From Actinomycetota bacterium (GTDB taxonomy: Bacteria; Actinomycetota; Acidimicrobiia; Acidimicrobiales; CADCSY01): DNA of 64,000 nt. Positions 8,646 to 41,215 of the stretch are shown piece after piece. Where the stretch lies: assembly GCA_019347915.1 (NCBI GenBank), contig JAHWKL010000001.1, positions 3,612 through 67,611 on the forward strand, written 5' to 3'. The notes under the pieces are model-generated. The model did no database searches. It saw only the letters and a list, made by a program, of their open reading frames with translations, and was not told the DNA's origin. Both the position numbers and the translations under genes were made by a program. How positions within the stretch are numbered: position 1 is the first letter of the stretch; every line of letters starts with the position of its first letter.

Positions 8646-8654
8646 TGCGCGTGA

Positions 8655-23575: not shown

Positions 23576-23666
23576 CTTCCACGCTCCCGGCAAACAGTCG
23601 GGACGCCAGCACCTTGACAACAGCAGAGACATCGTCGTCGAGGCCAGCGCCACCTGGCTTCGACAT

Positions 23667-23746: not shown

Positions 23747-23750
23747 CCGC

Positions 23751-23827
23751 GCGCGTCACGCCTGACAGGTAGGGCACCGGGCTCTTACCCCGGACAAGAC
23801 TGGGTTCGAGTCCCAGGGCGCGCACCA
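23751..23827 (+). tRNA. tRNA-Lys(CUU)-like with encoded CCA, A8 instead of U8 and C38
   Basis: Hand fold: acceptor gcgcgtc/ggcgcgc, D stem gcct/gggc with loop gacaggta, anticodon arm ccggg-CUCUUAC-cccgg, 6-nt variable loop, T arm ctggg-TTCGAGT-cccag, then A-CCA. Confidence 0.55.
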
Positions 23828-23828
23828 C

Positions 23829-23916
23829 GCCGCCGTAGCTCAGCCGGCCAGTCCGGTGGCGAGGATGTGAAGCACGCCACGCTCGTGATGCCGGTTCGAC
23901 TCCGCCGGCCACACCA
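23829..23916 (+). pseudogene. degenerate tRNA-Thr(CGU)-like element
   Basis: Canonical start gccgccg-ta-gctc, then about 30 nt inserted in the D region (hairpin gccgg/ccggt). It has a CUCGUGA loop but lacks the 3' anticodon-stem strand. T arm gccgg-TTCGACT-ccgcc has one mismatch. Ends ...cacacca. Confidence 0.35.
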
Positions 23917-23945
23917 CCAACCAACACGACGAGGAGGGGGATCAC

Positions 23946-25106
23946 ATGCCCACCAACATCAACGACAAGCTGATCTCCTGGGCGTCGGATATCGACGACC
24001 AGACGATCCGCCAAGCCGAGAAGGCAGCGCGGCTGCCGATCGTCGAGGGCCATGTCGCCCTCATGCCCGACGCTCACGTCGGCATCGGTGCCACCGTGGG
24101 CTCGGTGATCCCCACGAAGAACGCGGTGATCCCGTCGGCGGTCGGCGTGGACATCGGTTGCGGGATGATCGCGGCCGAGCTCGATGTGACCGAGGACCAG
24201 CTGCCGGATGCGCTCGAGCCACTGCTCGGCCGTATCGAGAAGGCCATCCCGGCCGGCGTGGGCCAGGGTCATGACCGGGTGGCCCGCAACGCCGACCGGT
24301 GGCTGGCACAGCACAAGCCGGCGACCGAGCTGGCCGCCGACCGCACGGCAAAGGTGCTCAAGCAGTTCGGCACGCTCGGTTCGGGCAACCACTTCTTCGA
24401 GCTGTGCGTGGACGAGCGCCGGCAGGTGTGGGTGGTGCTGCACTCGGGGTCGCGCGGCATCGGCAACCAGCTCGCGCAGGCGCACATCGCCAAGGCGCGC
24501 AAGCTGGCCAAGGATCTCGAGCTGCGGCTCGAGGACCCGGACCTCGCGTACTTCCTGGAGGGCACGCCGGAGTTCGCCGCCTACATCGGCGACATGCTGT
24601 GGGCCCAGGACTACGCGCTGGCCAACCGCGAGCAGATGATGGACAACGCCATGCGCGAGGTGTTCGCGTTCTTCGGCTTCGGCCGGGAGACGCGGCGCAT
24701 CAACTGCCACCACAACTTCACCCAGCGCGAGGTACACAACGGTAACGAGCTGTGGATCACCCGCAAGGGTGCGATCAAGGCCGCGGTCGGCGACCTCGGC
24801 GTCATCCCCGGCTCGATGGGCACGCGCAGCTACATCGTGGCGGGCAAGGGCAACGAGGCGAGCTGGACGTCGTGCTCGCACGGCGCCGGCCGTCGTCACA
24901 GCCGCACCAAGGCCAAGAAGCTCTTCACCACCGCCGACCTCGCCCAGCAGATGCAGGGCAAGGTGTGGCTCGCCGACCGGGCCGGCGCGCTGGTGGACGA
25001 GATCCCCTCGGCCTACAAGGACATCGATCAGGTCATGGCCGACCAGCTCGATCTCGTCGAGGTCCTGCACACGCTGCACCAGGTCCTCAACTACAAGGGC
25101 ACCTGA
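23946..25106 (+). CDS. rtcB: RNA 3'-phosphate/2',3'-cyclic phosphate ligase RtcB
   Basis: VALMPDAHVGIGATVGSVIPT, VGVDIGCGM, GSGNHFFEL, HSGSRGIGNQ, PGSMGTRSYIV, CSHGAGR. GAGGAGGGGG RBS 5 nt upstream. Confidence 0.95.
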   Translation: MPTNINDKLISWASDIDDQTIRQAEKAARLPIVEGHVALMPDAHVGIGATVGSVIPTKNAVIPSAVGVDIGCGMIAAELDVTEDQLPDALEPLLGRIEKAIPAGVGQGHDRVARNADRWLAQHKPATELAADRTAKVLKQFGTLGSGNHFFELCVDERRQVWVVLHSGSRGIGNQLAQAHIAKARKLAKDLELRLEDPDLAYFLEGTPEFAAYIGDMLWAQDYALANREQMMDNAMREVFAFFGFGRETRRINCHHNFTQREVHNGNELWITRKGAIKAAVGDLGVIPGSMGTRSYIVAGKGNEASWTSCSHGAGRRHSRTKAKKLFTTADLAQQMQGKVWLADRAGALVDEIPSAYKDIDQVMADQLDLVEVLHTLHQVLNYKGT

Positions 25107-27515: not shown

Positions 27516-28202
27516 TCACACGGGGAGACGCTCCGCCATGAGGTTGGCCAGGCGCACACGCTCACCTTCCGGAAAGACCTGACCGCCGGAAGACCAGGTG
27601 AAGAGGAAGGCCATCCCCCGTCCTCGACGCACGATCGTCACGACCACCGTGGAGTTCTGCGTCGAGAGAGGACTGCGGCGCTCGGTGCGAAAGGCGATGG
27701 ACTGGTCGCCGACCGGAGGCTCCCGGACGACCTCGTCGGTCTCCGACTGGTTGAAGGTCTGTGGCCCCCGGTCGCGGATGAGGTTGACCGCTTCAGAGAT
27801 GCACGCGAAGACGTCGGAGTCGCTCAGAGCGTCAAAGGCGACGATGGTGTCCTCTGCCTTCTCGGCTAGCACGACGGTTGCGCCCACCGTCGTGCCATTC
27901 AGGCGGTATGCGGGTGACTGGGCCGCAGCCGTCCTTCCCACGCCGGTGAGACCAAGCAGGGGTTGGCTGGCGAAACACTTGCCGTAGGTCTCGAACGCCA
28001 CCTCCGGCCCTGAGCCGATCGAGGCACCGGGAAGATCTCCCATCGTCACGACAGCTGCTGCCGCTTGGCGCTGGTCGTCCTCCGCGTCCTGGTTCCCCTC
28101 CCCAGTCCCGCCGTTGCGGGCCACCAGCACCCCGCCGGCCGCCGCGAGCAGGACCGCCACCAAGACGGCGATTCCGATCAGGAGCGGGCGGCGTTGGCTC
28201 AC
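27516..28202 (-). CDS. membrane-anchored extracytoplasmic protein, unknown function
   Basis: GTG start, N-terminal anchor PLLIGIAVLVAVLLAAAGGVLVA. Its 4-nt overlap with the upstream gene's stop indicates an operon. Confidence 0.7.
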   Translation of the reverse strand: MSQRRPLLIGIAVLVAVLLAAAGGVLVARNGGTGEGNQDAEDDQRQAAAAVVTMGDLPGASIGSGPEVAFETYGKCFASQPLLGLTGVGRTAAAQSPAYRLNGTTVGATVVLAEKAEDTIVAFDALSDSDVFACISEAVNLIRDRGPQTFNQSETDEVVREPPVGDQSIAFRTERRSPLSTQNSTVVVTIVRRGRGMAFLFTWSSGGQVFPEGERVRLANLMAERLPV

Positions 28203-29494
28203 GACCGCCCCTCCCCCTCAACAAGGGAGCTCAGCAGGCGGATCAACGGCTGGAGGCGCTCGGGCACCGCTCCGTCACTGGCTCGCACTGTGCGGCCGCG
28301 GTAGCTCACCTCGTAGACGATGTCGTCGACGACTGCGGAGCCGCGGTAGGCGGACCTGAGTTCGGGAAACCGTGCGTCCTCGGCCGCCTTCCTGACCGCG
28401 GCCAGCGTCTCGGACGGCACCTCGAAGTCACCCGGCCCGTTGACGGTGGTACCGAGCCTCGCCCGGCCCGACGACAAGTCGACTGTCAGGACATCGGAGA
28501 ATCCGGCGATGCCACCCGACCGGCGGTACTCGACGATGGCCGGTGCCTCCGTGGTCGGCACCGGCTCGTGCCGGGCCAAGGCCTCGGTGCTGGCGGCAAT
28601 ACGCACCAGCGTGCTCGGCGTCCGGCCCAGGACCCACACCGCTCCCTCTCCGGCCGCCACCGCAGCCAACGGAGCGCCCACCTTCACCTGGTCCGTGACC
28701 GTGTTGGTCACGGGGTCGATTCGAGAAACCAGGCCTTGAGCGTCCTCGCCGATAACCCAGACGCCGCCCTCGCCCACGGCAAGGCTCACCGGCCGGTCTG
28801 GCACCTCGATGGTGGTAGCTACCCGATTGGCTCTGGGGTCGTAGCGAGTGATCGTGCCGACGTCGGTGTTGGCGACCCAGACCGATCCCTCTCCCACGGC
28901 CACTCCTCGCGGCCCCACGCCGATTTCCACCCGATCGGTGACGGTATTCGTCATCGGGTCCAGGCGGATCAACTCGCCGGCGACCGGGTCACTCGCCCAC
29001 ACTGAGCCATCTCCGACTGCCAGTCCCCCCACGCGGGGCGCCACAGCCTCCGACGCCACCAGGCGTTTCTCTGTCGTGTTGACTCGGGTGAGCCTGGTGT
29101 CGCCCAGCACCGCCCACACCGACTCCGAATCGGCAGCCACCATCCGAGCGGACGACTCAGCGGGGATCGTGGCGGTGACCATCCCGCTCTGGGGATCGAT
29201 CAGGGACAGGCCCGCGCTGCCGCCCGCCCACACCGCGCCGGCGCCAACCGCCAGTCCGCCGAGGCCGGGGACTTCCACGACGGTGGATTGACCGGTACTC
29301 GGGTCCAGTCGGGTGACAACGCCGTCGCTTCCGACCCACACCGCGCCGTGGCCCACGGCGACCAAGAAGGCGTTGTCCCGAACCGCCACGGTGGCGCTGA
29401 TGGCGGGCGCCTTCTCATCGCCGCCGCACGCGGCGACTGACGACACCAGCACCAGCACCGGCACCAGCAATCCAAGGCCGCTGCGCACTCTCAT
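28199..29494 (-). CDS. beta-propeller repeat lipoprotein
   Basis: Lipobox LVSSVAAC. About 7 repeats of G.G.VWV....G.l.RiDP.TN.V. Has a distinct C-terminal domain. Confidence 0.8.
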   Translation of the reverse strand: MRVRSGLGLLVPVLVLVSSVAACGGDEKAPAISATVAVRDNAFLVAVGHGAVWVGSDGVVTRLDPSTGQSTVVEVPGLGGLAVGAGAVWAGGSAGLSLIDPQSGMVTATIPAESSARMVAADSESVWAVLGDTRLTRVNTTEKRLVASEAVAPRVGGLAVGDGSVWASDPVAGELIRLDPMTNTVTDRVEIGVGPRGVAVGEGSVWVANTDVGTITRYDPRANRVATTIEVPDRPVSLAVGEGGVWVIGEDAQGLVSRIDPVTNTVTDQVKVGAPLAAVAAGEGAVWVLGRTPSTLVRIAASTEALARHEPVPTTEAPAIVEYRRSGGIAGFSDVLTVDLSSGRARLGTTVNGPGDFEVPSETLAAVRKAAEDARFPELRSAYRGSAVVDDIVYEVSYRGRTVRASDGAVPERLQPLIRLLSSLVEGEGRS

Positions 29495-30480
29495 CGCTCG
29501 TCGACCCGGGTGAGGAGCCCCTGCTGCCCCGCCACCCAGACCGCCCCAAACCCCACGGAGACGGCGACCGGAGTTTCCTGGAGCTCGATGGCCCGGGTCG
29601 GCCGATTGGTGTCCGGGTCCACGCGGGTCAGAGTGTTGTCGGCCACGTTCGTGATCCAGGCCGATCCCAAGCCCACGGCCACGCCCGACGGCAAGGGGTT
29701 GTCGGAGAACTCCAATGTCTCAGGGAAGCGCCGGTCCGGATCAGCCCGAGCTGCGAAGTACTCGGCGGCGACCCAGATGCTCCCGGCGCCGATGGCCAAC
29801 GCGCGGGAGTTGGGAGGGAGGCGGCTGATCGTCTGGGTGAACTGCTCTTCGTCCGGGTCCAGGCGCGACACCGTGCCAACCCGGGTATCGCTGACCCAGA
29901 CCCCGCCCTCGCCGACGGCCACCTGCCCGGGTTCTTGGGGCAAGGCGAGATCGTCGTCGGGCATGGGTGGGACCTTGAGTGTGGCGGCGACCTCCATGGT
30001 CTTGGGGTCCACCCGACTGAGCGTGCCGTTGCCGGCCCTGTTGGCGACCCAGACGGAACCGTCTCCGGCAGCGAGGCCTTGGGGTTCACCCAGCTCGACG
30101 GTGCCGGTGACCTCATTGCGGGACGGGTCGATGCGTGAGAGCGCGGAGCCGCCCGTCACCCACACCGCTCCCTCGCCGACGGCCAGGTTCTTCGCCCCGG
30201 AGGGCACGGAGATGCGCCCCGCGATGCTGTTGGTCTCCGGGTCCACCCGGACCACCGTCGACTCGCCGTCGGCCACCCATACGGCCTCCTCGCCCGTGGC
30301 CACTCCTGAGGAGCTCTGTCCGATGTCGATCGCGGCGCTGACCTCCAACCCCTTGGAGCTGGACCCGCCGTGGCCGCAGGCCGACCACACCAGGGCCACC
30401 GCGGTGACCACGACCCGCAGTATGGAGCGACCGCGGCGATTTCCGAACGTCGCCGATCCATCGTTCGTGGTCCAGACCAA
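29491..30480 (-). CDS. beta-propeller repeat lipoprotein (paralogue); start uncertain (TTG 30480)
   Basis: ILRVVVTAVALVWSAC lipobox, and the same repeat type (GEGAVWVTGGSALSRIDPSRNEV etc.). ATGA overlap with the downstream gene. The upstream 168 codons of the ORF are Arg/Pro-rich and judged non-coding. Confidence 0.7.
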   Translation of the reverse strand: MVWTTNDGSATFGNRRGRSILRVVVTAVALVWSACGHGGSSSKGLEVSAAIDIGQSSSGVATGEEAVWVADGESTVVRVDPETNSIAGRISVPSGAKNLAVGEGAVWVTGGSALSRIDPSRNEVTGTVELGEPQGLAAGDGSVWVANRAGNGTLSRVDPKTMEVAATLKVPPMPDDDLALPQEPGQVAVGEGGVWVSDTRVGTVSRLDPDEEQFTQTISRLPPNSRALAIGAGSIWVAAEYFAARADPDRRFPETLEFSDNPLPSGVAVGLGSAWITNVADNTLTRVDPDTNRPTRAIELQETPVAVSVGFGAVWVAGQQGLLTRVDER

Positions 30481-31076
30481 ACGAGCTTTGGTGCCCCGCG
30501 GAGTAGGCGCGTGGCTGCCAGCGCGCCGTGCGCTCCGGTTGCCGCCTTCGCTCACGGAAGCGGACGGGACCGAGACAGGTAGGCGGTCCGCCGAAGGGTG
30601 CCGGACTCCAACACGGGTACCCACACGGCCGCCATCGAACGACGTCGTTCGATACACCGAGCCTCCCAGTTGATCGGACACGCCAGGTTCTCCTGCGGGG
30701 CAAGGCGCCGCTGGACCGAAGAGAGGAAGAGCTGCCGTTGTGGTTCTCGTCACCGAACACGATGAACGACGCGGTGTCCCGGGCGCCAGTGTCAGATGTC
30801 CCGAACAGCACCGGGACTTTTCTGCCCGTTGGGATGGAGGGTCAGATCCAACCCGAGGCGCGGGGCCGGACCGGACTGCTCGGCCACCAGCTCCCCGCTG
30901 GTGCGCGGGTCGTACTAGACGTTCTCGACCGTCACGGGCCGGTGCAGGACCATGGCGGGGAATCGAGCGACGACCACCCGGCAATTCCCCGGGTCGTCAA
31001 GGGAACGTCGCCCGAGTGCGGTAGTCGGGCACGGCGGGTCCGGGTTCAGGGCGTCCGACACCTGGTTACCAAGCGG

Positions 31077-32916: not shown

Positions 32917-32967
32917 GGAGTTCCTACCACGGTCTCGCCCCCGACCGCTTCATGGGCTCTGCGTGCC

Positions 32968-33141
32968 GCCCGGTAACCGGCGGAGCCGGGCGCTGGCAAG
33001 CCCGATACCACCCGTCGACCATCCTGCTGCATGGCCCACTGTCAGCCCGATCTGCTGTCGGCACGTCGTGCCGCCGTTCGAGGCGAGCAGTAGCGAAGGG
33101 CTCTCCGCGCACGTCGAAGGTCATGGGAATGAGCTGGTGGA
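32968..33141 (+). repeat. dispersed repeat, copy C2; an A-type 3' module follows at 33218-33257
   Basis: See C1. GGTTCCCGCGCGTTCTGTCGCACGCGTCGCGGGGCGTCGG at 33218-33257 aligns with copy E and the A 3' part. Confidence 0.6.
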
Positions 33142-33462
33142 CGGAGAGCGACCGGTTCTGGTGTTCTCGCGATCTGCCGGTTCGGCGCGACGGTAGGGCC
33201 CAGGGTGTCGTGTGTGCGGTTCCCGCGCGTTCTGTCGCACGCGTCGCGGGGCGTCGGACGGAGTCCAGCCCTGCCCATCATGCGCCGCCATCGGTCCGCG
33301 GCGGTCCTCGCGCCACTGGCGCATCCGCGCCGCCCGCTCCCGGAGTTCACCCGGATTCGTCTCGGTCGTGCCATCGAACTCCATCCTCCCGCAACGAATA
33401 GAGCCTCCAAGGAACCCGGGGCGGTTCACCGCCCAATCACAGGCCCGGACGAGCACTGAACT

Positions 33463-33693
33463 GGTGGACCGGGTTGGACGTACGATCGGCCGGTCACGCC
33501 CAAGCCTCAGACGATTCAACGCGGCATCGCGGCAGAAGTGGGCGGGAGGGTTCCCGACGAAGCGCGCGTGTGAGCAGGTGCTCAACCCGCGCTGGAGCGG
33601 ATCCGCAAGCGCAAGTACGCGGATGCCATGAAGCTGACGGTCGGCCAGTGTCTCCACCGATGGCTCGACTCGGTGGAGCCCCTCCAGTACTGA
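33463..33693 (+). pseudogene. remnant of a tyrosine-recombinase (phage integrase) N-terminal region
   Basis: Pieces in two frames plus an in-frame TGA: GWTYDRPVTPKPQT.., GGFPTKRACEQVLN, ALERIRKRKYADAMKLTVGQCLHRWLDSVEP. This matches the usual ...GGF.TK.EAE.AL...G.Y....KLTVGE.L..WL arm-binding/SAM-like N-terminus. The catalytic domain is absent. Confidence 0.5.
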
Positions 33694-33882
33694 AGCGAAA
33701 CGGACCTTGACGACTGGCGGCGTCCCCGGCGGTCCCGTGTCCTCTGCCTTCACGAGGCGTTAGTGGAGAGTGAGTGTCCCGCCATCGTGGCGCGCACAGC
33801 TGACATGCCGCGCCCGTCTTACACTCCGCAGTGTGCTCGTGGTTGGATCGGTCGGGGAGGCTCAGCTGGTGAGGAGACGGCC

Positions 33883-36800
33883 ATGATCGAGGTCGCTGGG
33901 CGCGTCACGGTCCGCGGGTCGGGCGTGCCGGTGGGGAACGTGGTGGTCGAGGCGTTCGACGTCGCGAAAGCGCGGCGAGGGTCGAGCGCGCTGACCGGCG
34001 GCGACATCGGATGGGTTGGCGACGCACCGAGCCTGGGCTCGGCGCTGACCGACGCGGACGGTCGCTTCTCGTGGACCACCGGAGAGGGTGAGGACAACCG
34101 CAGCCGCGTCATCGCCGTGGCCGTATTCGCGCCCAGCGGCGGCGGCGGGCGTGCCGGTCGAAGTCTCGAGCTGCTCCACCTCGTGCCCCGGCTGCGGAAG
34201 GCGGGCGACGGCGTGCACCGCTACGCCATCGCGATCGACCCCGAGCGGCTCCGGCGGGCTGCGGCCGACGGGTCGGCGGACGCGGCGACCCCGGGCGGCG
34301 CCGAGGGGCGCGCGGCGGCGGCGCGCACGCGGGTCGCGGCCAGGGTGACCGAGCGGGAGGCGGCGGCCGCGATCCGCCGGCGGGCCTTGGCGCGCGCCCG
34401 CCCGCTGCGCGAGGCGCTCGACGCCGCCGTGCGCGACGCCCTCCGGGAGCGGACGGTCGCACCCGTGCGCCGGGGAAACGGCGACTTGCCCCCCGCCGTC
34501 CTGGCCGTTGGCGAGACCGTACGTGCGCACACCCGGCGGCTGCTCGACGAGGCGCTGCGCAACCGGGCGAGCGTGGCGACAGCGAGGGGGCTCGTCGACC
34601 TCAGCGACGGCGACACCGCCGTCCTGCTGGACGGGTCGGGCGCGCCGGCGAGCGGGCTGACCGACGACGACGTGCGGCGCGTCCTCTTCGGTGTCGAGCA
34701 CGAGACGGGGCCGCCCAGCCGGTACCGGCGGGACCTCCTCTCGATCGCGTGCCGCAACCGCACGCCGCCCTACCAGCGCTGCAGCGACGCTGGGGAAGAC
34801 GAGGACGGGGACGGGGACGGCGACGGGGACGGCGACGGGGACGGCGACGGCGGTGGGGACGGTGATGGCGAGAGCGGCGAGGCGACGGCCGCGCTCATCA
34901 AGCGCATGGTCGCCCGCCTGCTCAAGGACCTCGCCGAGTTCCCGGTGGTGGCGGGCGTTGAATCGGCCCGGGCGACGGCCGCGGGCATCGGCCGGCAGCT
35001 GCGCGACCTCACCATCGAAGGCGGACCGGCCGACGCCGTCGCCCTCTTCGAGTTCGAACGCCTGTTCCTCGCGTCCGACCTGCTCGTGTCGCCCCGGCCC
35101 GATCCGGGTCTGATCAGTGACCTGATCGACTCGGGCCGCAAGCTGTCCGCCCTCGGAGGCGACCTCGACGGGGCGTCACGAGGAGGCGACGTCATCGACG
35201 CCATCGCCGCGGAGAGCTCCCTCCTCGCGGCTGAGGACCCGCTCCGGAGCGGGGCGGGATCCGGCTCCAGCAGCGCCCGCTCGCCGGTCTTCTTCGGGCT
35301 TCCCAACCCTTTCGACATCCTCGACGACATCGCCGACGCGATCAGCGACGCGCTCACGCCGCGCGACCGGTTCGTTCAGCTGCGAGCGTTCCTCGACGAC
35401 CTTCGCCGGCTGCGGCGCAGCGACTATCCGTTCACGCCGTTTGCGACCGACGACACCGGTCGCTCGGTCAGCGCCGGCCTCCTCGTGGGCTACCAGCAGC
35501 GGTGGGAGCCGCGTGGCTACCAGGCGGGTGAGCTGGTGAAGACTATCCCGCTCGCGCCCAAGGCTTCGATCCGCTACTCAGCCCGGCGCAAGTCCGCCAA
35601 GACCTATACCGACCGGCGGGCGGAGGCGTCGGAGTCGCGCTACAGCAGCGAGGCGGCCGACGTGCAGCGGGACGTGGCGAAGATCGTGCGCGACACCAAG
35701 CTGTCGACGTCGTTCACGCTGTCGAAGGAGGCAGGGGCCGGGGTGCCGGGCGTCGGGTCGGGCACGACGACGAGCGTGTGGACCGCGGGGGCCGAGCGCA
35801 CGTCGTCCTCCACAAAGGAGGCGTTTCGGGAGGCGACGCGCAAGCGGGCCGAGGAGCACAAGCGCAGCTCGACCATGGAGGTCACCGTGTCGAGCACCGA
35901 CGAGGTCGAGGTGACCGAGGCGAGCGAGATCGGCAACCCCAACGAGGAGCTGGTCGTCACGTACCTGTTCTACGAGCTGCAGCGCCGGTTCCTCGTGTCC
36001 GAGCGACTGCAGCGGGTGACGCCCGTCGCCGTCGTGGCCCACGAGCTGCCGGCACCCAGCGAGCTCGACGAGTCGTGGGTCGCCCGGCACGACTGGATCC
36101 TCCGGCGGGTGCTGCTCGACCCCTCCTTCCAGCCCGCCATCGAGTACGCGGTCTCGGGCAAGCTCGTCGCTGACCTCGGCAAGGCGGAGGAGCTCGAGTC
36201 GGCCGTCGACCGCCAGGCCGCGCTCGTCGAGTCGCTCAAGCGCGAGCTGGCCGCCCTGCGCTCCGAGGATCTGCTGCCCGACCCGCGGAACATCTTCGAG
36301 CTGTTCAAGGTGCGGATCTACGACGAGAAGTACCCGGGGTGGCGCGAGGACGAGCAGCGCGTGGGAGAGGTTTTCGGGGAGGACGTCGCCAACCGGCTGG
36401 CCGAGCGGCGACGGGCCATCGAGCGTGTCGAGGGCGAGATCGGCAAGCAGGCGACCGAGCTGGAACGGACCACGGCTGCGTTCAACGAGGCCTTCATGAC
36501 GTACGCCACCGAAGCAGTCCAGGTGGAGCGCTTCCTGCTCCACCTGAAGGACAACATCCTCCACTACCAGCACGCGATCTGGGACCACGAGACCAAGGAC
36601 CAGCGCTACCTCCGGTTGCGCCACGCGCCGGTGCCGGCGGTCGCGGGCTCGGTTGCGTACACGCTCGAGCCGTCGGGGCTCCCGCCCCGTCCGCCCACGT
36701 GGCGCGCACCATTGAAGGTGACGGCCCGGGCGAGCCTGCGGGTCGACGACGAGGGGGAGCTGGGCGACGTGGCCGACGTGGCCAACCTGCTCGGCTACGT

Positions 36801-37341
36801 CGGCAACGCCATGGTGTTCCCGATGATGCGGTGGGACCCCCTGATCGAGTTCCTCATGGCGCCGTTCGCGTCGGCCATCACGGGGGTCGTCGATCCCGAC
36901 GATACGGCCAACGCGACGATGTCCGAGCTGGAGGAGCTCGTGTGCTGCCTGCAGGAGCGGCTGTCCAACGCCGAGTTCGAGGCGCTCAAGCCTGCCATCG
37001 ACGCGGCGTGGGAGGGCCGCATCAAGGACCCGCGTCCTGACGCGCAGGATCTCGTCATCCCGACCGGCTCGCTCTTCATCGAGGCGCTGCCCGGCGGTCA
37101 TCCCGTGCTCGAGGACTTCAAGCTGCTGCACCGCTCCCTCGACGTGCAGCAGGTGGCGAGTGAGCTCGTGTCGGAGCGGCTCGAGCAGCTGCGGTACGCA
37201 TCGCGGCTCCTGCAAGACGTGCTCGACGACCCTGATGCCGACCGCCAGATCGTCGTGCGGGGCGACATCGCCGGGCTGCTGGTCGACCCAGACGGAGACG
37301 GGGACGGCGGCGACGGTGGTGGCGGTGGTGGCGGTGGGTAG
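33883..37341 (+). CDS. large (1152 aa) protein of unknown function: N-terminal transthyretin/CarboxypepD_reg-like beta-sandwich, poly(Asp-Gly) tracts, beta-rich central region, coiled coil
   Basis: ATG 33883 follows GAGGAG. N-terminus IEVAGRVTVRGSGVPVGNVVVEAFD...TDADGRFSW. No Walker A, signal peptide or TM helix seen. Normal codon/aa composition outside the low-complexity tracts. Confidence 0.8.
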   Translation: MIEVAGRVTVRGSGVPVGNVVVEAFDVAKARRGSSALTGGDIGWVGDAPSLGSALTDADGRFSWTTGEGEDNRSRVIAVAVFAPSGGGGRAGRSLELLHLVPRLRKAGDGVHRYAIAIDPERLRRAAADGSADAATPGGAEGRAAAARTRVAARVTEREAAAAIRRRALARARPLREALDAAVRDALRERTVAPVRRGNGDLPPAVLAVGETVRAHTRRLLDEALRNRASVATARGLVDLSDGDTAVLLDGSGAPASGLTDDDVRRVLFGVEHETGPPSRYRRDLLSIACRNRTPPYQRCSDAGEDEDGDGDGDGDGDGDGDGGGDGDGESGEATAALIKRMVARLLKDLAEFPVVAGVESARATAAGIGRQLRDLTIEGGPADAVALFEFERLFLASDLLVSPRPDPGLISDLIDSGRKLSALGGDLDGASRGGDVIDAIAAESSLLAAEDPLRSGAGSGSSSARSPVFFGLPNPFDILDDIADAISDALTPRDRFVQLRAFLDDLRRLRRSDYPFTPFATDDTGRSVSAGLLVGYQQRWEPRGYQAGELVKTIPLAPKASIRYSARRKSAKTYTDRRAEASESRYSSEAADVQRDVAKIVRDTKLSTSFTLSKEAGAGVPGVGSGTTTSVWTAGAERTSSSTKEAFREATRKRAEEHKRSSTMEVTVSSTDEVEVTEASEIGNPNEELVVTYLFYELQRRFLVSERLQRVTPVAVVAHELPAPSELDESWVARHDWILRRVLLDPSFQPAIEYAVSGKLVADLGKAEELESAVDRQAALVESLKRELAALRSEDLLPDPRNIFELFKVRIYDEKYPGWREDEQRVGEVFGEDVANRLAERRRAIERVEGEIGKQATELERTTAAFNEAFMTYATEAVQVERFLLHLKDNILHYQHAIWDHETKDQRYLRLRHAPVPAVAGSVAYTLEPSGLPPRPPTWRAPLKVTARASLRVDDEGELGDVADVANLLGYVGNAMVFPMMRWDPLIEFLMAPFASAITGVVDPDDTANATMSELEELVCCLQERLSNAEFEALKPAIDAAWEGRIKDPRPDAQDLVIPTGSLFIEALPGGHPVLEDFKLLHRSLDVQQVASELVSERLEQLRYASRLLQDVLDDPDADRQIVVRGDIAGLLVDPDGDGDGGDGGGGGGGG
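34795..34872 (+). repeat. in-frame hexanucleotide (GAY-GGN) tandem repeat encoding EDEDGDGDGDGDGDGDGDGGGDGDGE
   Basis: Read directly. A second tract at 37288-37338 encodes the C-terminal DPDGDGDGGDGGGGGGGG. Confidence 0.85.
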
Positions 37342-37365
37342 CGGGTAGCGGCCCCGTTCGCACCA

Positions 37366-39060
37366 ATGGCCCCGAAGCCACCGCGGGTCCCCGTCACCCG
37401 CATCGATCCCGAGACGCAGCGGGCGCTCGAGGAGGCGCGCCGCACCACGGACCGAGCCAACGATCCCGACGACGGCTTGACCCGGGCGGGCGCGACCACC
37501 AAGCACAAGGAGGCGGTGGCCGAGTACCACGCTCGCCAACACCTCCGGCAGACGTTCGGCGAGGACCTCGGCGAGGAGATTGTCCTCCCCCGGCGGGGCG
37601 CTCGCCGGCGCCGGCAGGGCGAGGGCCCGCCGATCCTGGACGCCGCGTACGAGCTGCGGGACGGCCGCGTGCTCGTGGTCGAGGTGAAGTACGGCAAGTC
37701 GAAGCTGGGCCGCACCCGGCGTGAGGTCTTCGCTGCGAGCGAGGAAGGCGACGTCGCGCGGCGCGTGACCCGGCGGGGCACGAGGCAGTTCTCGCCCGAC
37801 TGGTTCCGCGACCGCCTGAACGAGCTGGCGAGCAAGGGCGGCGACTCGACCCGGATCGCCAACCGGATGCGCGCGGCGTGGACGGAGGGACGCATCGTGG
37901 CCCAGGTGATCTACGTCGACCGGGCCGGCAACGTGGAGGTCGACGACCGCACCGAGCAGTGGCGGCGGGCCGGCATGGTGCGGCGGCCATCGCATCCGGC
38001 TGGCACGGCCGCACCAGCGGGGCGCGGCACCACGACGGGCAGGGGTGCGCCGGTACCGACGGCGCGCGGCACGACGGCCGGGGGCACGGCCGCACCGATG
38101 GGACCCGGCACGACGACGGGCGGGGGCTCGCCCGCACCGCAGCGAGCCCGGTCGGGCTCGGTGGGCGACCGGGCCACGTCGGCGCGCGTCGCCACGCCGG
38201 CCGACCCCGCTTCGGTTCCTCGGACAGCGGCCGGCGGTGGCGGCCCCGCGCCGGCGTCGCAGGCCGGACCACGGCTGCGGGCGGGCGGCCTAGGCGGCGC
38301 GCGCGGCGCCGGCGGGGTGGCGGACTTGTTGCACACCGCGGCGCGAATGGGGGTGGCCGCGAGTGAAGCGCGCCGGGCGGAGAAGGCGTTCCACGCGATG
38401 CTACCCGCGGTCGAGCGCTACCGGAGCGAGGGTTATTGGGTGGCGCTGACGCTCGTCGTCGAGCGGCCGATCCGGACGGACCTGACCGGGTTCGACAACC
38501 GCCTGCGGTTCACGTGCTGGCAGCTAGAGTACGGCCGGACCGAGGCCGCGGCCCGCGGGAACAAGCCGGCGACGATCGGTCCAGCGCCGAGCCGCGAAGA
38601 GACGAGAGGTCGGCGGTCGAACCCGTGCCAGCCGTCGCGCGCGGACTGGGAGCTCGTGTCGCTCGCACCGATCGTGTTCCCGCCGTACGAGGAGTTCGCG
38701 CGCGCCGAAGGGTTTGGCGCGGGCGGGACGTACGAGGTGGTGTCGACTGACTTCGGAGGCGTGCCTGAGCCCGCGATCGTGCGGGCCCGGCGGCTCACGA
38801 TCATCCGAATCGACCAGGACGCGCCTCCGCGCCTCACTATCCTCGACCTGTCCAGCGGCGAGCGCCTCGGCACCTACGTCATCCGCCAGACCGACCGCAT
38901 CATCACGGTGCTCATCGGGTCGCCTCGGCGGAGAGCGTCGTCGGAGAGCACCTTCATGCGGCTGGCCTCACCGTCGGGCGACAACCTCGTGCTCGAGATG
39001 TTCCGCGGACCGCACACCGGTGGCCGGGCTGGGATCGTGCTGTGGCGCGCCATCCGATGA
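37366..39060 (+). CDS. 564-aa protein: N-terminal PD-(D/E)xK nuclease-like domain, Gly/Thr/Ala/Pro-rich repetitive linker, C-terminal domain of unknown function
   Basis: Starts 24 nt after the preceding stop. The E...D...ExK pattern is HKEAVAEYHARQ ... PPILDAAYELRDGRVLVVEVKYGKSKL. The linker has GTT(T/A)G-type repeats. Confidence 0.7.
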   Translation: MAPKPPRVPVTRIDPETQRALEEARRTTDRANDPDDGLTRAGATTKHKEAVAEYHARQHLRQTFGEDLGEEIVLPRRGARRRRQGEGPPILDAAYELRDGRVLVVEVKYGKSKLGRTRREVFAASEEGDVARRVTRRGTRQFSPDWFRDRLNELASKGGDSTRIANRMRAAWTEGRIVAQVIYVDRAGNVEVDDRTEQWRRAGMVRRPSHPAGTAAPAGRGTTTGRGAPVPTARGTTAGGTAAPMGPGTTTGGGSPAPQRARSGSVGDRATSARVATPADPASVPRTAAGGGGPAPASQAGPRLRAGGLGGARGAGGVADLLHTAARMGVAASEARRAEKAFHAMLPAVERYRSEGYWVALTLVVERPIRTDLTGFDNRLRFTCWQLEYGRTEAAARGNKPATIGPAPSREETRGRRSNPCQPSRADWELVSLAPIVFPPYEEFARAEGFGAGGTYEVVSTDFGGVPEPAIVRARRLTIIRIDQDAPPRLTILDLSSGERLGTYVIRQTDRIITVLIGSPRRRASSESTFMRLASPSGDNLVLEMFRGPHTGGRAGIVLWRAIR

Positions 39061-39524: not shown

Positions 39525-39745
39525 AAACGTGCTGATCATGAGTCGTCCGCTGAGCCGATGACGACCAGAACGTCCGAAGCCAGGAGTTGTGGAATGCGTG
39601 TGTTGCCTTCGGCAGATGGGTCGGCCGGGGGCGCTGAACCGGTCGTGGAGTTGGCGGGGGGGATTCCGGCGAGCGGCGCTGGCGCGCCCCGGCGCAGGGC
39701 GAGGTGGCTGTCCCCGTCCGGTGCATCGTTCGCCGGGGAGCGGCG

Positions 39746-41215
39746 ATGACCGAACATGCGGTGGTGATCGCAGGAGGCGGCCCGACGGGGCTGATGTTGG
39801 CGGGCGAGCTGGCGTTGGCGAGGATCGACGTCGTCGTCGTCGAACCACGCACCAGTCAGCATCTCGACGGATCACGAGCCGGGGGCCTTCACTCCCGCAC
39901 CATCGAGGTGCTCGATCAGCGTGGCATCGCGGAACGATTCCTCTCGGCGGGTAAGACGATGCAGGTCCAGGGTTTCTCCGGCATCCCCTTGGACATCAGC
40001 GACTTCCCCACCCGCCACAACTACGGACTGGCACTCTGGCAGAGCCACTTCGAGCCCATCCTGGCTGACTGGGTCGATGAGCTCGGCGTTCCGATCCTGC
40101 GCGGCTGCGAGGTCGTGGGCTTCGCACAGGATGACAGCGGCGTCGATGTCGAGCTGTCCGGGGACACCTCCCTCCGAGCGGAGTATCTCGTCGGCTGCGA
40201 CGGAGGACGCAGCCTGGTCCGCAAGGGAGCCGGCATCGACTTCCGCGGGTTGGATCCCTCGACGAGCTGGATGATCGCCGAGGTCGAGATGGACGAGGAG
40301 CCGGAGTTCGGCTTCCGTCGCGACAGCGTCGGCACCCACGCCCTGGGTCAGAGGGAAGACGGGAAGTCGGTTCGGGTCGTCCTCACCGAACGACACCTCG
40401 ACCACACCGGCGACCCCAGCATGGAGGAGCTTCGCGACGCACTGGTCTCCGTGTACGGGACGGACTACGGGCTTCGGCGCGCCAACTGGATCTCCAGGTT
40501 CACCGACATGACGCGGCAGGCAGCCTCCTACCGCCGAGGCCGCGTCCTGCTGGCCGGGGACGCCGCACACCTGCATCCGCCCCACGGCGGCCAGGGCCTC
40601 AACACCGGCGTGCAGGATGCCGTGAACCTGGGCTGGAAACTGGCCCAGGTCGTCAACAAGACATCACCCGAGAGCCTCCTGGACACCTACCATGCCGAAC
40701 GGCATCCGGTCGGTGCCCGGGTGCTGCACAACACCATGGCGCAAGTCGCGCTCAGCAGTCCCGACGACCGTCACCAGGCCCTCCGCGACACCATGACGGA
40801 ACTGCTGGGCATGGATCAGCCGCGCCGGCGCATCGCCGCCATGCTCTCCGGTCTCGACATCCACTACGACCTCGGAGAGGGACACCCGCTGCTCGGGCGG
40901 CGCATGCCCGACCTCGACGTGCACACCGCCGACGGTCCCACACGCGTGTTCAGCCTGCTGCACGACGCCCGGCCCGTGCTCCTCAACCTCGGTGAACCCG
41001 GCAGCTTCGACATCTCTCCCTGGGCGGATCGAGTCCGGTTGGTCGACGCCAGGCACGATGGTGTGTGGGAGCTCCCGGTCCTGGGCGAGGTCACTGCGCC
41101 CCCGGCCGTGGTGATCCGACCCGACGGGCATGTCGCCTGGGCAGGAGAGCTCGCGGACCCAGAGCTGCCCCGAGCACTTGCGACCTGGTTCGGAGAGGCC
41201 ACTCCGGCTCAGTAG
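39746..41215 (+). CDS. FAD-dependent monooxygenase, rifampin monooxygenase (Rox/RIFMO)-like
   Basis: AVVIAGGGPTGLMLAGELAL, GCDGGRSLVRK, LAGDAAHLHPPHGGQGLNTGVQDAVNLGWKL, LLDTYHAERHPVGARVLHNTMAQVAL, GLDIHYDLGEGHPLLGRRMPDLD. Confidence 0.8.
   Translation: MTEHAVVIAGGGPTGLMLAGELALARIDVVVVEPRTSQHLDGSRAGGLHSRTIEVLDQRGIAERFLSAGKTMQVQGFSGIPLDISDFPTRHNYGLALWQSHFEPILADWVDELGVPILRGCEVVGFAQDDSGVDVELSGDTSLRAEYLVGCDGGRSLVRKGAGIDFRGLDPSTSWMIAEVEMDEEPEFGFRRDSVGTHALGQREDGKSVRVVLTERHLDHTGDPSMEELRDALVSVYGTDYGLRRANWISRFTDMTRQAASYRRGRVLLAGDAAHLHPPHGGQGLNTGVQDAVNLGWKLAQVVNKTSPESLLDTYHAERHPVGARVLHNTMAQVALSSPDDRHQALRDTMTELLGMDQPRRRIAAMLSGLDIHYDLGEGHPLLGRRMPDLDVHTADGPTRVFSLLHDARPVLLNLGEPGSFDISPWADRVRLVDARHDGVWELPVLGEVTAPPAVVIRPDGHVAWAGELADPELPRALATWFGEATPAQ

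What the first reader, a model, noticed from the sequence alone, without database searches (positions are those of the whole stretch)
33883..39060. Two-gene cassette of unknown function beside a decayed integrase: giant Asp-Gly-tract protein plus PD-(D/E)xK nuclease-domain protein
Two genes follow directly after a repeat copy (C2) and an integrase remnant.

**The 1152-aa gene:**
- It has an N-terminal transthyretin/CarboxypepD_reg-like beta-sandwich (IEVAGRVTVRGSGVPVGNVVVEAFD...DADGRFSW).
- It has a 26-residue (D/E/G) tract and a beta-strand-rich Ser/Thr-rich centre (TIPLAPKASIRYSARRKS...VTVSSTDEVEVTEASEIGNPNEELVVTYLFYELQRRFLV).
- It has a long coiled coil, a conserved-looking HLKDNILHYQHAIW segment and a poly-Gly/Asp tail.
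- I see no NTPase, protease, signal-peptide or TM motif.

**The 564-aa gene:**
- It starts 24 nt later.
- Its N-terminus has the E...D...ExK signature of the restriction-endonuclease fold (ILDAAYELRDGRVLVVEVKYGK).
- This is followed by a repetitive G/T/A/P linker and an unassigned C-terminal domain.

The pairing of a large scaffold with a nuclease effector, the island-like context and the lack of recognisable families are compatible with three readings: an uncharacterised defence or abortive-infection module, a toxin cassette, or a prophage structural remnant.
Basis: partly seen in the sequence, partly recalled or inferred. Interest (0 to 1): 0.7.

Follow-up and report, generated by a model that had tools for sequence, protein, structure and literature searches.

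The report
Giant conserved partner plus swappable toxin
The two genes are real and form a mobile pair seen across many bacterial phyla and some archaea: a large, conserved, unannotated protein always followed by an interchangeable toxin-like protein, which looks like an undescribed kind of polymorphic-toxin (microbial warfare) system rather than a phage remnant or a known anti-phage defence.

Summary
Both ORFs exist as described: A at 33883-37341 (1152 aa) and B at 37366-39060 (564 aa), 24 nt apart.

**Gene A.** It matches no Pfam, NCBIfam, PHROGs, PADLOC or PDB entry. An exhaustive HMMER search still finds a large unannotated family: 1,676 cluster representatives, mostly 1,100-1,300 aa. Members occur in at least nine bacterial phyla and four archaeal lineages.

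**The pairing.**
- In 64 of 80 genome loci, a same-strand ORF follows A, starting within about 100 nt of A's stop in most of them.
- That partner is the only conserved neighbour.
- It is hypervariable: 38 unrelated clusters among 64. A cores that are 84-86% identical can carry unrelated partners.
- Partners are mosaics with swapped C-termini.
- Some carry polymorphic-toxin modules: PT-TG, WHH/colicin DNase and CdiA_C.

**Gene B.** Its N-domain keeps an invariant E…D…ExK signature in 10 sequences, at either the N- or the C-terminus. No profile or fold match confirms a nuclease.

**A new motif.** About 45% of partners start with one to three copies of a short RG[T/I/V/L] motif.

**Readings tested.** Prophage remnant is rejected, and no integrase remnant was found. 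The Asp-Gly tracts are lineage-specific.

**Best reading (about 0.5):** a new polymorphic-toxin system with A as the conserved carrier. A sensor-plus-effector defence system is the main rival (about 0.25).

The parts
32965..33145 (.). Copy of a ~180-nt repeat (the other copy is at 23165-23350, about 85% identical) in the 960-nt non-coding gap upstream of gene A. It is context only and is not shown to belong to the cassette.
33872..33877 (+). Shine-Dalgarno-like GAGGAG, 5 nt before the ATG of gene A
   Evidence: sequence read directly
33883..37341 (+). Gene A: a 1152-aa member of a large, unannotated family of ~1,100-1,300-aa proteins. This is the conserved partner of the cassette.
33883..34236 (+). 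A residues 1-118: N-terminal transthyretin / CarboxypepD_reg / CnaB-like beta-sandwich
   Evidence: AF2. Foldseek against PDB. PF13620 in one family member.
34792..34872 (+). A residues 304-330: a D/E/G low-complexity tract in a variable, disordered linker. It is lineage-specific and not a family feature.
35380..37242 (+). A residues ~500-1120: the conserved family core. It contains YQAGELVKTIPLAPK, NPNEELVVTYLFYELQRRF, HLKDNILHYQHAIW, GYVGNAMVFP and LFIEALPG..LEDFKLLHR. It has long beta-hairpins plus a 70-residue helix and no detectable PDB fold relative.
37291..37338 (+). A residues 1137-1152: poly-Gly/Asp tail, disordered and not conserved
37366..39060 (+). Gene B: the 564-aa variable partner, starting 24 nt after A's stop. 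NCBI annotated it from V102 (463 aa), which cuts off E53 and D92.
37453..38001 (+). B residues 30-212: a conserved domain with an E53…D92…E106-x-K108 signature, a putative PD-(D/E)xK-type nuclease/toxin module. The same domain sits at the C-terminus of other partners (L037, L058, L146, P0156).
   Evidence: No profile or fold confirmation.
37978..38310 (+). B residues ~205-315: a repetitive G/A/P/T/R-rich disordered linker. It contains an 81-nt-spaced direct repeat and two RGT tripeptides.
   Evidence: (D7)
38311..39057 (+). B residues 316-564: a C-terminal domain with one long helix followed by a ~8-stranded beta domain. It is shared only with L002_B. There is a weak, low-confidence lipocalin/avidin-like barrel resemblance.

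Best explanation
The cassette is one member of a widespread, previously unannotated two-gene conflict module.

**Components**
- Gene A encodes a conserved ~1,150-1,300-aa protein with three parts:
  - a surface-binding-type N-terminal beta-sandwich;
  - variable linkers;
  - a conserved ~600-aa core of unknown fold.
- Gene B, in the tightly coupled downstream slot, is a recombinationally exchangeable, polymorphic-toxin-like protein.

**What is shown**
- A is conserved.
- B is hypervariable and mosaic.
- Some B proteins carry bona fide polymorphic-toxin modules.
- The pair moves as a unit.
- The family is absent from phages.

**What is inferred**
- A acts as the constant carrier, presentation or translocation component for the variable toxin. 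This is analogous in logic to MafA/MafB, VgrG-effector pairs or binary toxins.
- Many B proteins dock to A through an N-terminal leader carrying one to three RG[T/I/V/L] motifs.
- In this window, B's toxic module is the N-terminal E…D…ExK domain, which is probably a metal-dependent nuclease of the restriction-endonuclease fold.

**What is unknown**
- How the complex leaves the producer and enters a target. Neither protein has a Sec/Tat signal, and no secretion genes are linked.
For: **Family size and spread**
- 1,676 representatives at E<=1e-3 and 607 at E<=1e-30.
- 199 loci in GTDB species genomes, covering Actinomycetota, Bacteroidota, Myxococcota, Planctomycetota, Pseudomonadota, Acidobacteriota, Cyanobacteriota, Chloroflexota and Gemmatimonadota.
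- Archaeal members in Methanophagaceae, Nitrososphaera and Methanococcoides and in a haloarchaeal plasmid.

**Constant A-plus-partner architecture**
- 64 of 80 loci have a same-strand ORF following A. The gap is at most 60 nt in 51 of them and at most about 100 nt in 57.
- 46 of 67 usable loci in an independent metagenome set show the same arrangement.
- All-versus-all clustering of neighbourhood ORFs finds nothing else conserved.

**Hypervariable partners**
- 37 BLAST clusters or 38 phmmer clusters among 64 partners.
- A cores 84-86% identical carry unrelated partners.
- Mosaics share N-regions and swap C-termini: L030/L073/L082, L001/L033, L058/L078 and L047/L069/L070.

**Polymorphic-toxin modules in partners**
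- PT-TG in 3 partners, plus WHH, Colicin-DNase, CdiA_C and Peptidase_M10.
- WHH plus Colicin-DNase at residues 605-704 of 715 in Amycolatopsis L033_B.
- RefSeq annotates the partner in Salinirubellus as a 'pre-toxin TG domain-containing protein'; PT-TG maps to residues 185-249 of 553.

**The window's B domain**
- It recurs at the C-terminal (toxin) position in L037, L058, L146 and P0156, with E/D/ExK invariant in 10 of 10 sequences.

**N-terminal RG[TIV] leader**
- Present in 28 of 64 partners and 23 of 38 clusters, against 7% of other neighbourhood ORFs.
- 0 of 2000 shuffles reach the observed count.
- Widening the motif to RG[TIVL] gives 29 of 64.
- The widened motif is seen again in 13 of 46 independent partners.

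**Other support**
- Several +2 genes encode lipoprotein-like proteins, which is typical of periplasmic immunity proteins.
- The flanks of the window cassette are not syntenic with those of its closest relatives.
- One A member carries extracellular glycan-binding-type modules, CHB_HEX_C_1 and Fn3_assoc.
- MafA/MafB is a precedent for a conserved upstream gene that exports a polymorphic downstream toxin (PMC7738311).
Against: - A and B have no signal peptide, TM segment or recognised trafficking domain. No secretion-system genes are linked.
- An immunity gene is not consistently detectable. 41 of 60 loci have a same-strand ORF of at least 60 aa after B, which is not clearly above chance in GC-rich DNA. 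The WHH-nuclease locus L033 has none, and the window and L002 share none.
- Only about 15% of partners have any Pfam hit.
- In this window the toxin-like domain is N-terminal, the reverse of the classical layout.
- The window's own B has only a degenerate leader (DDGLTRAGATT). Its two RGT tripeptides sit in the linker.
- The nuclease assignment has no profile or structural support. Pfam and PDB gave nothing. The AF2 model has pLDDT 42. Foldseek gave no nuclease hit.
- The RG motif is absent from about 55% of partners and does not track A lineages overall.
- A's role is inferred purely from genomic logic.
Confidence: 0.5

Rival explanations
1. An intracellular anti-phage or abortive-infection system. 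A is a large conserved sensor or scaffold. B is a swappable effector (nuclease, peptidase or membrane-active protein) that A holds inactive until infection. The logic resembles Lamassu (an SMC-like LmuB plus a variable LmuA effector) or Avs/CBASS effector swapping.
For: - Neither protein has an export signal or TM segment.
- No secretion genes are linked.
- No consistent immunity gene is present.
- The distribution across bacteria and archaea is patchy and HGT-like, with several copies per genome.
- The cassette is mobile.
- A has long helices and weak Foldseek resemblance to SMC, Rad50 and RecN heads (E 3e-3 to 5e-2; similar weak hits in BFVD).
- Effector-domain swapping on a constant partner is typical of defence systems.
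Against: - No PADLOC hit for A or B at E<=1.
- Only two marginal PADLOC hits among 61 partners.
- No conserved Walker A motif in the family: 3 of 40 members match, at non-homologous positions.
- The SMC-like matches have TM 0.04-0.2 and rmsd above 20 Å, so they are probably coiled-coil artefacts.
- The recognisable partner domains (PT-TG, CdiA_C, colicin DNase, WHH, matrixin, Extensin-like_C) are hallmarks of exported inter-microbial toxins (PMC3482391).
- A's N-terminal beta-sandwich, and the CHB_HEX_C/Fn3_assoc modules in one member, are typical of extracellular binding.
- Some +2 genes are lipoprotein-like.
- No recurrent defence genes appear in the neighbourhoods.
Confidence: 0.25
2. A self/non-self recognition or surface-display module, or another non-toxic function. 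A would be a cell-surface or structural protein, and the variable partner a diversifying surface or adhesion factor, as proposed for the VARTIG modules of Thermococcales. Toxin domains would be present in only a minority of partners.
For: - About 85% of partners have no recognisable domain.
- Hypervariability on a constant large upstream protein parallels VARTIG (PMC8416519).
- A has a beta-sandwich N-terminus.
Against: - No signal peptides or anchors are present.
- The partner domains that are recognisable are toxins.
- The window's own partner keeps a catalytic-looking E…D…ExK signature.
Confidence: 0.1
3. A prophage or phage-tail structural remnant next to a decayed integrase.
For: - The protein is large and rich in beta-strands, with a CarboxypepD_reg-like N-domain that Foldseek also finds in phage 'Baseplate J-like' proteins (E about 0.05-0.07, N-domain only).
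- A repeat copy lies upstream.
Against: - No PHROGs hit.
- No tblastn match in 50,697 phage genomes.
- No relative in 2.9 million IMG/VR contigs.
- No phage genes nearby.
- No integrase signal upstream.
Confidence: 0.02

Closest known systems
Polymorphic toxin systems (Zhang, de Souza, Anantharaman, Iyer & Aravind 2012, PMC3482391)
   Same: - The toxin proteins are multi-domain and hypervariable, and their C-terminal toxin modules are exchanged by recombination.
- Partners contain PT-TG, WHH, colicin-DNase and CdiA_C modules.
- Some genomes hold several loci.
- The phyletic distribution is sporadic and driven by horizontal transfer.
   Different: - No known trafficking domain (signal peptide, TPS, PAAR/VgrG, LXG/WXG, RHS, PVC-metallopeptidase, MuF) is present.
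- The constant element is instead a separate ~1,200-aa protein of unknown fold encoded immediately upstream.
- An immunity gene is not consistently detectable.
- Archaea, where classical systems are rare, carry the module.
- In this window the toxin-like domain is N-terminal.
MafA/MafB of Neisseria (PMC7738311) and T6SS binary effector or adaptor modules (PMC8728615)
   Same: A conserved gene immediately upstream of a polymorphic toxin gene is needed for, or travels with, the toxin. The operon is two tightly coupled genes.
   Different: - MafA is a small outer-membrane lipoprotein restricted to Gram-negative bacteria, and T6SS modules depend on a linked T6SS.
- A is about 1,200 aa and has no signal peptide.
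- A occurs in monoderm bacteria, diderm bacteria and archaea.
- No sequence or fold similarity was detected.
Lamassu and other defence systems with a constant large subunit and swappable effectors
   Same: A constant large, coiled-coil-containing protein is paired with an effector whose enzymatic domain varies (nuclease, peptidase and others). Neither has an export signal.
   Different: - No PADLOC match was found.
- A has no Walker A or other ATPase motif.
- The partners share no constant A-binding domain.
- The recognisable effector domains are of the exported-toxin type.
PD-(D/E)xK (restriction-endonuclease-fold) toxin domains, such as the Tox-REase families
   Same: The window's B domain has a conserved helix-1 Glu, then D…(13 residues)…ExK on two predicted adjacent beta-strands. 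The domain occupies the C-terminal toxin slot in other partners.
   Different: - No profile match to any Pfam or PDB PD-(D/E)xK family.
- The fold is not confirmed, because the AF2 model has low confidence.
- Relatives are few: 10 sequences were found.
VARTIG modules of Thermococcales (PMC8416519)
   Same: A large upstream protein is followed by hypervariable downstream genes. The organisation resembles polymorphic toxin systems, and the function is unknown.
   Different: - VARTIG is built on Ig domains.
- It is restricted to Thermococcales.
- Its variability lies in the large protein's own C-terminus.
- Here the large protein is conserved and the downstream gene varies.

Membership tests
Polymorphic toxin systems | Toxin protein with a conserved N-terminal or central region and a recombinationally variable C-terminal toxin domain | tested here: met
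   This holds at the family level.
- Partners are mosaics with swapped C-termini.
- L033_B has a C-terminal WHH/Colicin-DNase module.
- L083_B has PT-TG followed by a C-terminal module.
- The window-type domain sits at the C-terminus in L037, L058, L146 and P0156.

For the window's own B the domain is N-terminal, which is atypical.
Polymorphic toxin systems | Recognised N-terminal trafficking domain or secretion signal, or linked secretion-system genes | tested here: not met
   - No Pfam or NCBIfam hit for A or B.
- No signal-peptide-like or TM segment in the window's A or B. 38 of 40 A-family members have no hydrophobic 19-mer. 18 of 64 partners have one, but only L042_B's lies near the N-terminus.
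- No conserved neighbour other than the partner.
Polymorphic toxin systems | Cognate immunity gene immediately downstream of the toxin gene | tested here: inconclusive
   - 41 of 60 loci have a same-strand ORF of at least 60 aa within 150 nt after B.
- Some of these are lipoprotein-like.
- None is present in L033.
- None is shared between the window and L002.
- None was matched to a known Imm family.
Polymorphic toxin systems | Pre-toxin (PT) domain preceding the toxin | tested here: met
   PT-TG occurs in 3 of 61 partners and in L083_B at residues 185-249. It is absent from the window's B.
PD-(D/E)xK nuclease superfamily (B residues 30-212) | Conserved catalytic D…(D/E)xK, with a helix-1 acidic residue | tested here: met
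   E53, D92, E106 and K108 are invariant in the 5-sequence alignment and in all 10 HMM-collected instances.
PD-(D/E)xK nuclease superfamily (B residues 30-212) | Alpha-beta-beta-beta-alpha-beta core fold | tested here: inconclusive
   - The AF2 secondary structure (H40-67, E94-97, E102-109, H144-173, E177-184, E190-194) is compatible with the fold, but mean pLDDT is 42 and the domain averages about 45 (10-residue block means 22-66).
- Foldseek found no nuclease.
PD-(D/E)xK nuclease superfamily (B residues 30-212) | Sequence-profile match to a known family of the superfamily | tested here: not met
   - Pfam at E<=1: none.
- PDB phmmer and profile searches: none.
- hhalign against the D…EVK module of L083_B: probability 1%.
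Known anti-phage defence systems (PADLOC-DB v2) | Match of either protein, or of the partners, to a defence-system model | tested here: not met
   - A and B have 0 families at E<=1.
- Among 61 partners only PbeC (1e-4) and DndD (2.5e-4) appear, each in one member.
SMC/Rad50-like ATPases (for example Lamassu LmuB) | Walker A/B and signature motifs flanking an antiparallel coiled coil | tested here: not met
   - No conserved Walker A: 3 of 40 members match, at non-homologous positions.
- Foldseek hits have TM 0.04-0.2 and rmsd 22-29 Å.
Phage structural proteins / prophage | Homologs in phage genomes or viral contigs, or phage genes alongside | tested here: not met
   - PHROGs: none.
- INPHARED tblastn: none.
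- IMG/VR: none.
- The neighbours are metabolic or regulatory genes.
Transthyretin-like / CarboxypepD_reg beta-sandwich (A residues 1-118) | Seven- to eight-stranded beta-sandwich of that topology | tested here: met
   - Foldseek matches HIU hydrolases, transthyretin-related protein, CnaB and pilins with probability 0.95-1.0, E 2e-3 to 5e-2 and TMt up to 0.57.
- PF13620 matches one family member at E = 0.007.

This is fold-level similarity only.
Tyrosine/serine integrase (upstream 'remnant') | Detectable similarity of any frame of 32917-33882 to a recombinase | tested here: not met
   - Pfam gave nothing for the two longest ORFs.
- The six-frame scan shows only an isolated 'HDLRR'.
- tblastn against phages gave no match at E<=1.
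- PDB gave none.

The most novel reading that the evidence does not exclude
Family A is a self-contained toxin-delivery machine that needs no dedicated secretion system.

- It would be a conserved carrier/translocator that recognises a short N-terminal RG[T/I/V/L] leader on otherwise unrelated toxins.
- It would bind target cells through its N-terminal beta-sandwich.
- It would carry the cargo across the target envelope, in the manner of a binary toxin or Tc toxin.
- It would work in monoderm bacteria, diderm bacteria and archaea alike.

That would make it a new trafficking class of polymorphic toxins with a programmable loading signal.
Probability: 0.2. Interest if true: 0.9.

Novelty: new variant of a known kind. 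Interest (0 to 1): 0.7.

Why it matters
- **A large blind spot in annotation.** At least 1,676 clusters (at 50% identity) of ~1,200-aa proteins have no Pfam, NCBIfam, PHROGs, PADLOC or PDB relative, and every source that names them calls them 'hypothetical'.
- **A strict, simple genomic rule.** The family is always followed by a swappable partner that sometimes carries known toxin modules. That makes it a tractable candidate for a new polymorphic-toxin delivery route or a new immune system.
- **Reach into archaea.** Such systems are thought to be rare there.
- **A reservoir of unknown proteins.** About 85% of the partners have no recognisable domain, so they are candidate toxin or effector folds.
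- **A possible loading signal.** The short RG[T/I/V/L] leader, if it is a loading signal, would be a handle for cargo engineering.
- **Consequence for the window.** It turns an 'orphan' pair into a member of a definable system and corrects the public annotation of gene B's start.

Tried and rejected
1. **Indexed protein searches with full-length A and B.** They returned 1-2 hits. The exhaustive HMMER search showed the family is large.
2. **Indexed search with the B N-domain alignment.** Only three fragments were found.
3. **AF2 of B with a 2-sequence alignment.**
   - pLDDT was 42, so the model is unusable for fold assignment.
   - Its Foldseek run gave only weak lipocalin-like hits for the C-domain.
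4. **Foldseek of the A model against PDB and BFVD.**
   - Only the N-terminal sandwich matched.
   - The SMC/Rad50-like and Yasminevirus hits have very low TM-scores and were not accepted.
5. **Beta-pore-forming hairpin idea for A residues 606-640.**
   - The segment is a conserved, alternating hairpin.
   - Its period-2 amphipathicity ranks only 4th among A's own strands, so it is not diagnostic.
   - The idea is kept only as speculation.
6. **Apparent A-B fusions in L032 and L063.** They were wrong-frame, Arg-rich ORFs picked by my script and were discarded.
7. **Homology between the window's B domain and the D…EVK C-terminus of the archaeal L083_B.** hhalign probability was 1%, so it was rejected.
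8. **Co-variation of the RG leader with A lineage.** One clade is 7 of 8 positive, but there is no overall concordance.
9. **Integrase remnant upstream.** No support.
10. **Literature.**
    - PMC3482391 and PMC13483458 do not mention a conserved ~1,200-aa upstream partner.
    - Makarova et al. 2019 (mBio) is not held in the library.

Full report
**1. The observation**

Both ORFs are present as described.
- Gene A runs 33883-37341 on the + strand and encodes 1152 aa. An in-frame GTG lies at 33763.
- A GAGGAG Shine-Dalgarno sequence at 33872-33877 and the aligned N-termini of homologs support the ATG at 33883.
- Gene B runs 37366-39060 and encodes 564 aa. It starts 24 nt after A's TAG.
- The window comes from an Actinobacteria MAG. 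NCBI annotated B from V102 as a 463-aa protein. The 535-aa homolog P0003 aligns from residue 1, so the long form is correct. The short form removes E53 and D92.

- D/E/G run at A residues 304-330.
- G/D tail at A residues 1137-1152.
- G/A/P/T/R linker in B.

The Asp/Gly tracts occur in only 1 of 40 family members. They sit in regions that are variable and predicted disordered. They are incidental.

The 'decayed integrase' could not be reproduced.
- Pfam found nothing in the two longest ORFs of the 32917-33882 gap.
- A six-frame reading shows only an isolated HDLRR pentapeptide.
- tblastn against phage genomes gave no match.
- PDB phmmer gave nothing.

The repeat copy is real: 32965-33145 is about 85% identical to 23165-23350.

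**2. Gene A belongs to a large, unannotated family**

- Pfam, PADLOC, NCBIfam and PHROGs gave no hit for A or B, even at E<=1.
- PDB phmmer also gave nothing.
- The indexed protein search returned one homolog of A and two of B.
- An exhaustive hmmsearch with the A+P0001 profile found 1,676 representatives at E<=1e-3 and 607 at E<=1e-30. Most are 1,100-1,300 aa and match along the whole length or over the C-terminal ~650 residues.
- Ten members looked up were unnamed or 'hypothetical protein'.
- A 40-member alignment has 35 invariant columns concentrated in residues ~380-400 and 515-1110.
- That profile hits nothing meaningful in PDB. The members carry no shared Pfam domain.
- A scan of one genome per GTDB species found 199 loci. 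They span Actinomycetota, Bacteroidota, Myxococcota, Planctomycetota, Alpha-, Beta- and Gammaproteobacteria, Acidobacteriota, Cyanobacteriota, Chloroflexota and Gemmatimonadota.
- The archaeal members are in Methanophagaceae, Nitrososphaera and Methanococcoides.
- Some genomes have two copies, for example Rhizocola hellebori and two Kofleriaceae/Myxococcales MAGs.

**3. Structure of A**

AF2 with the 40-sequence alignment gave pLDDT 73 and pTM 0.62. The model shows these regions:

| Residues | Prediction |
|---|---|
| 2-118 | Beta-sandwich |
| 138-195 | Long helix |
| ~213-290, ~336-450 | Small alpha/beta modules |
| 293-335, 452-493 | Disordered linkers |
| 529-571, 692-719 | Very long beta-hairpin strands |
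| 571-640 | Low-confidence Ser/Thr/Gly-rich segment between them |
| 760-794, 821-890 | Helices |
| 916-1110 | C-terminal alpha/beta region, pLDDT around 90 |

- Foldseek against PDB matched only the N-terminal sandwich, to transthyretin-like HIU hydrolases, CnaB and pilins.
- The remaining hits are to SMC, Rad50 and RecN heads. They have TM 0.04-0.2 and rmsd above 20 Å, and I attribute them to the coiled coil.
- No conserved Walker A motif exists in the family.
- BFVD gave nothing convincing.
- 38 of 40 members have no TM or signal-like segment, and most N-termini begin directly with the sandwich.
- The 606-640 segment is a conserved, alternating beta-hairpin. Its amphipathicity is not exceptional within the protein, ranking 4th. 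A pore-forming role is therefore only speculation.

**4. The partner gene is the key**

- In 64 of 80 genome loci a same-strand ORF of 140-1148 aa follows A. The gap is at most 60 nt in 51 of them and at most about 100 nt in 57.
- In an independent set of 80 metagenome loci, 46 of 67 with enough downstream sequence show the same arrangement.
- Clustering all neighbourhood ORFs shows that A and this +1 gene are the only conserved elements.
- The partners are extraordinarily diverse: 37 BLAST clusters or 38 phmmer clusters among 64.
- The closest full-length A homolog is P0001, at 52-55% identity. It is followed by an unrelated 776-aa protein.
- The A fragment in L002, at 68% identity, is followed by a true homolog of B at 49% identity.
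- A cores 84-86% identical can have unrelated partners (L025/L034, L036/L068). Related partners are rare in every identity bin below 80%.
- Partners are mosaics that share N-terminal or central regions but differ at their C-termini: L030/L073/L082, L001/L033, L058/L078 and L047/L069/L070.

Only a minority of partners have any Pfam match, and those matches are hallmarks of polymorphic toxins.
- PT-TG in 3 partners, plus WHH, Colicin-DNase, CdiA_C, Peptidase_M10 and Extensin-like_C.
- In Amycolatopsis (L033) the WHH/colicin-DNase module is at residues 605-704 of 715.
- On a Salinirubellus (haloarchaeon) plasmid, RefSeq annotates the gene after the A homolog as a 'pre-toxin TG domain-containing protein'.
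- Its PT-TG domain is at residues 185-249 of 553 and is followed by a further C-terminal region.
- PADLOC found essentially nothing in 61 partners.

**5. The window's own partner**

- B residues 30-212 form a domain found in 10 sequences from 7 lineages.
- A helix-1 Glu (E53), D92 and E106-x-K108 are invariant. So are a PRRG…G..ILD lead-in and a QFSP.WF helix.
- The domain is N-terminal in the window, L002, L036 and L031. It is C-terminal, the toxin slot, in L037, L058, L146 and P0156.
- The fold is not confirmed.
  - No Pfam or PDB profile match.
  - The AF2 model is poor, with pLDDT 42.
  - Foldseek found no nuclease.
- B's C-terminal domain (316-564) is shared only with L002_B. It is predicted as a helix plus an eight-stranded beta domain with a weak lipocalin-like resemblance.

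**6. A new short motif**

- Many unrelated partners begin with one to three copies of [N/D/S/E/A/Q]-R-G-[T/I/V], spaced 5 or 7 residues apart, within the first ~40 residues.
- Examples: NRGTANRAIHNRGT, ERGTIDRGTGGESRGV, QRGTFSRGTMSRGT and ARGTGDRGT.
- The motif occurs in 28 of 64 partners and 23 of 38 clusters, against 7% of other neighbourhood ORFs. 0 of 2000 shuffles reach the observed count.
- It is present in low-GC Bacteroidota and in archaeal loci as well.
- With Leu also allowed at the last position, it recurs in 13 of 46 independent metagenome partners.
- The haloarchaeal partner starts with …DDRGL….
- It is not universal. A second partner class has a different conserved N-terminus, ITPxQEEFVSRFKAYM.
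- Motif presence is only partly clade-linked.
- The window's B has only a degenerate DDGLTRAGATT at residues 35-45. It has two RGT tripeptides in its linker.
- I interpret the motif as a candidate docking or loading signal. This is inference.

**7. Context**

- The window's neighbours are ordinary genes. Upstream are NHL-type beta-propellers, ABM, cupin-LuxR and OsmC. Downstream are an FAD monooxygenase and an APH.
- None of these flank the closest relatives of the cassette, so the pair moves as a unit.
- L002 has an IS3-type transposase right after B.
- The family is absent from 50,697 phage genomes and 2.9 million viral contigs. In PLSDB it is found on four very large replicons of 0.56-2.1 Mb, one of them predicted conjugative.
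- A same-strand ORF of at least 60 aa follows the partner in 41 of 60 loci. Some are lipoprotein-like, including FGE-sulfatase-domain lipoproteins in Kofleriaceae.
- L033 has none, and the window and L002 share none. The immunity criterion is therefore inconclusive.

**8. Interpretation**

The evidence best fits a new class of polymorphic-toxin-like conflict module. A is the constant component and the +1 gene is the exchangeable toxin.

The closest logical precedents are:
- MafA/MafB (PMC7738311);
- T6SS binary modules (PMC8728615);
- polymorphic toxin systems in general (PMC3482391).

The main rival is a sensor-plus-effector anti-phage system. It is favoured by the absence of export signals and of a consistent immunity gene. 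It is disfavoured by the exported-toxin character of the recognisable partner domains and by the lack of any PADLOC signal.

The prophage reading is rejected.

The two papers on polymorphic toxins and PT-TG context that I could read do not describe this upstream family. Absence from Pfam (2025) and NCBIfam (2026) also suggests it is undescribed. I could not read Makarova et al. 2019.

**9. Verdict**

- The finding is real and more interesting than an orphan pair.
- The 'nuclease' remains a motif-level inference.
- The 'integrase' and the 'Asp-Gly' emphasis should be dropped.

Noticed in passing
window 37366-37669 (B residues 1-101): The public NCBI annotation starts gene B at V102 (463 aa). 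That removes E53 and D92 of the conserved signature. The homolog P0003 aligns from residue 1, so the long form is correct.
   Followed up: yes
window 23506-25106: A cluster of three tRNA genes (Trp-CCA, Tyr-GTA, Lys-CTT) lies immediately upstream of an RtcB RNA ligase gene (23946-25106). It follows a low-GC stretch (0.59-0.62 at 20-23 kb) that holds two GH63/MGH1-like glycosidase genes. Rfam confirmed only the Tyr and Lys tRNAs at gathering score.
   Followed up: partly
window 23165-23350 and 32965-33145: A ~180-nt direct repeat, about 85% identical, with copies 9.8 kb apart. One copy is upstream of the tRNA cluster and the other upstream of gene A. Its nature is unknown, and no Rfam family matches it.
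   Followed up: partly
window 9705-9850 and 41064-41209: A 146-nt direct repeat, 90% identical. The second copy is the 3' end of the FAD-monooxygenase gene (39704-41215), which suggests a paralog or gene fragment near 9.7 kb.
   Followed up: no
window 12969-13079, 18353-18463 and 8604-8649: A 111-nt repeat at 97% identity, with a third partial copy. It was not examined.
   Followed up: no
window 28199-30984 (- strand): Two adjacent paralogous NHL/DUF6923-type beta-propeller genes contain a 46-nt periodic repeat family, D1.
   Followed up: no
window 38002-38139 (B linker): The G/A/P/T linker of B contains an 81-nt-spaced direct repeat and two RGT tripeptides (GRGTTT, ARGTTA). These resemble the N-terminal leader motif of other partners, but could be chance given the composition.
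   Followed up: partly
L005 8001-11336: The A homolog in this Actinomycetes MAG (55-66% identity) is split over several reading frames. It is either a pseudogene or carries long-read assembly indels.
   Followed up: no
L020 12310-13041, L025 9799-10533, L059 11395-12135: In Kofleriaceae/Myxococcales loci the gene after the partner encodes a lipoprotein-like protein with an FGE-sulfatase (SUMF1-like) domain. This could be an immunity protein or simply a lineage-expanded family.
   Followed up: partly
L001 15408-17369 and L083 15014-15911: A MoxR-type AAA_5 + VWA protein (L001) and a VWA protein (L083) lie a few genes downstream on the opposite strand in two distant loci. The arrangement is not conserved family-wide.
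   Followed up: no
L030, L111, L143, L158, L163, L164 (partner N-termini): A second class of ~1,100-aa partners lacks the RG leader and shares a different conserved N-terminus (M.ITP.Q.EFVSRFKAYM…L..YIKGL). This may be an alternative docking module.
   Followed up: no
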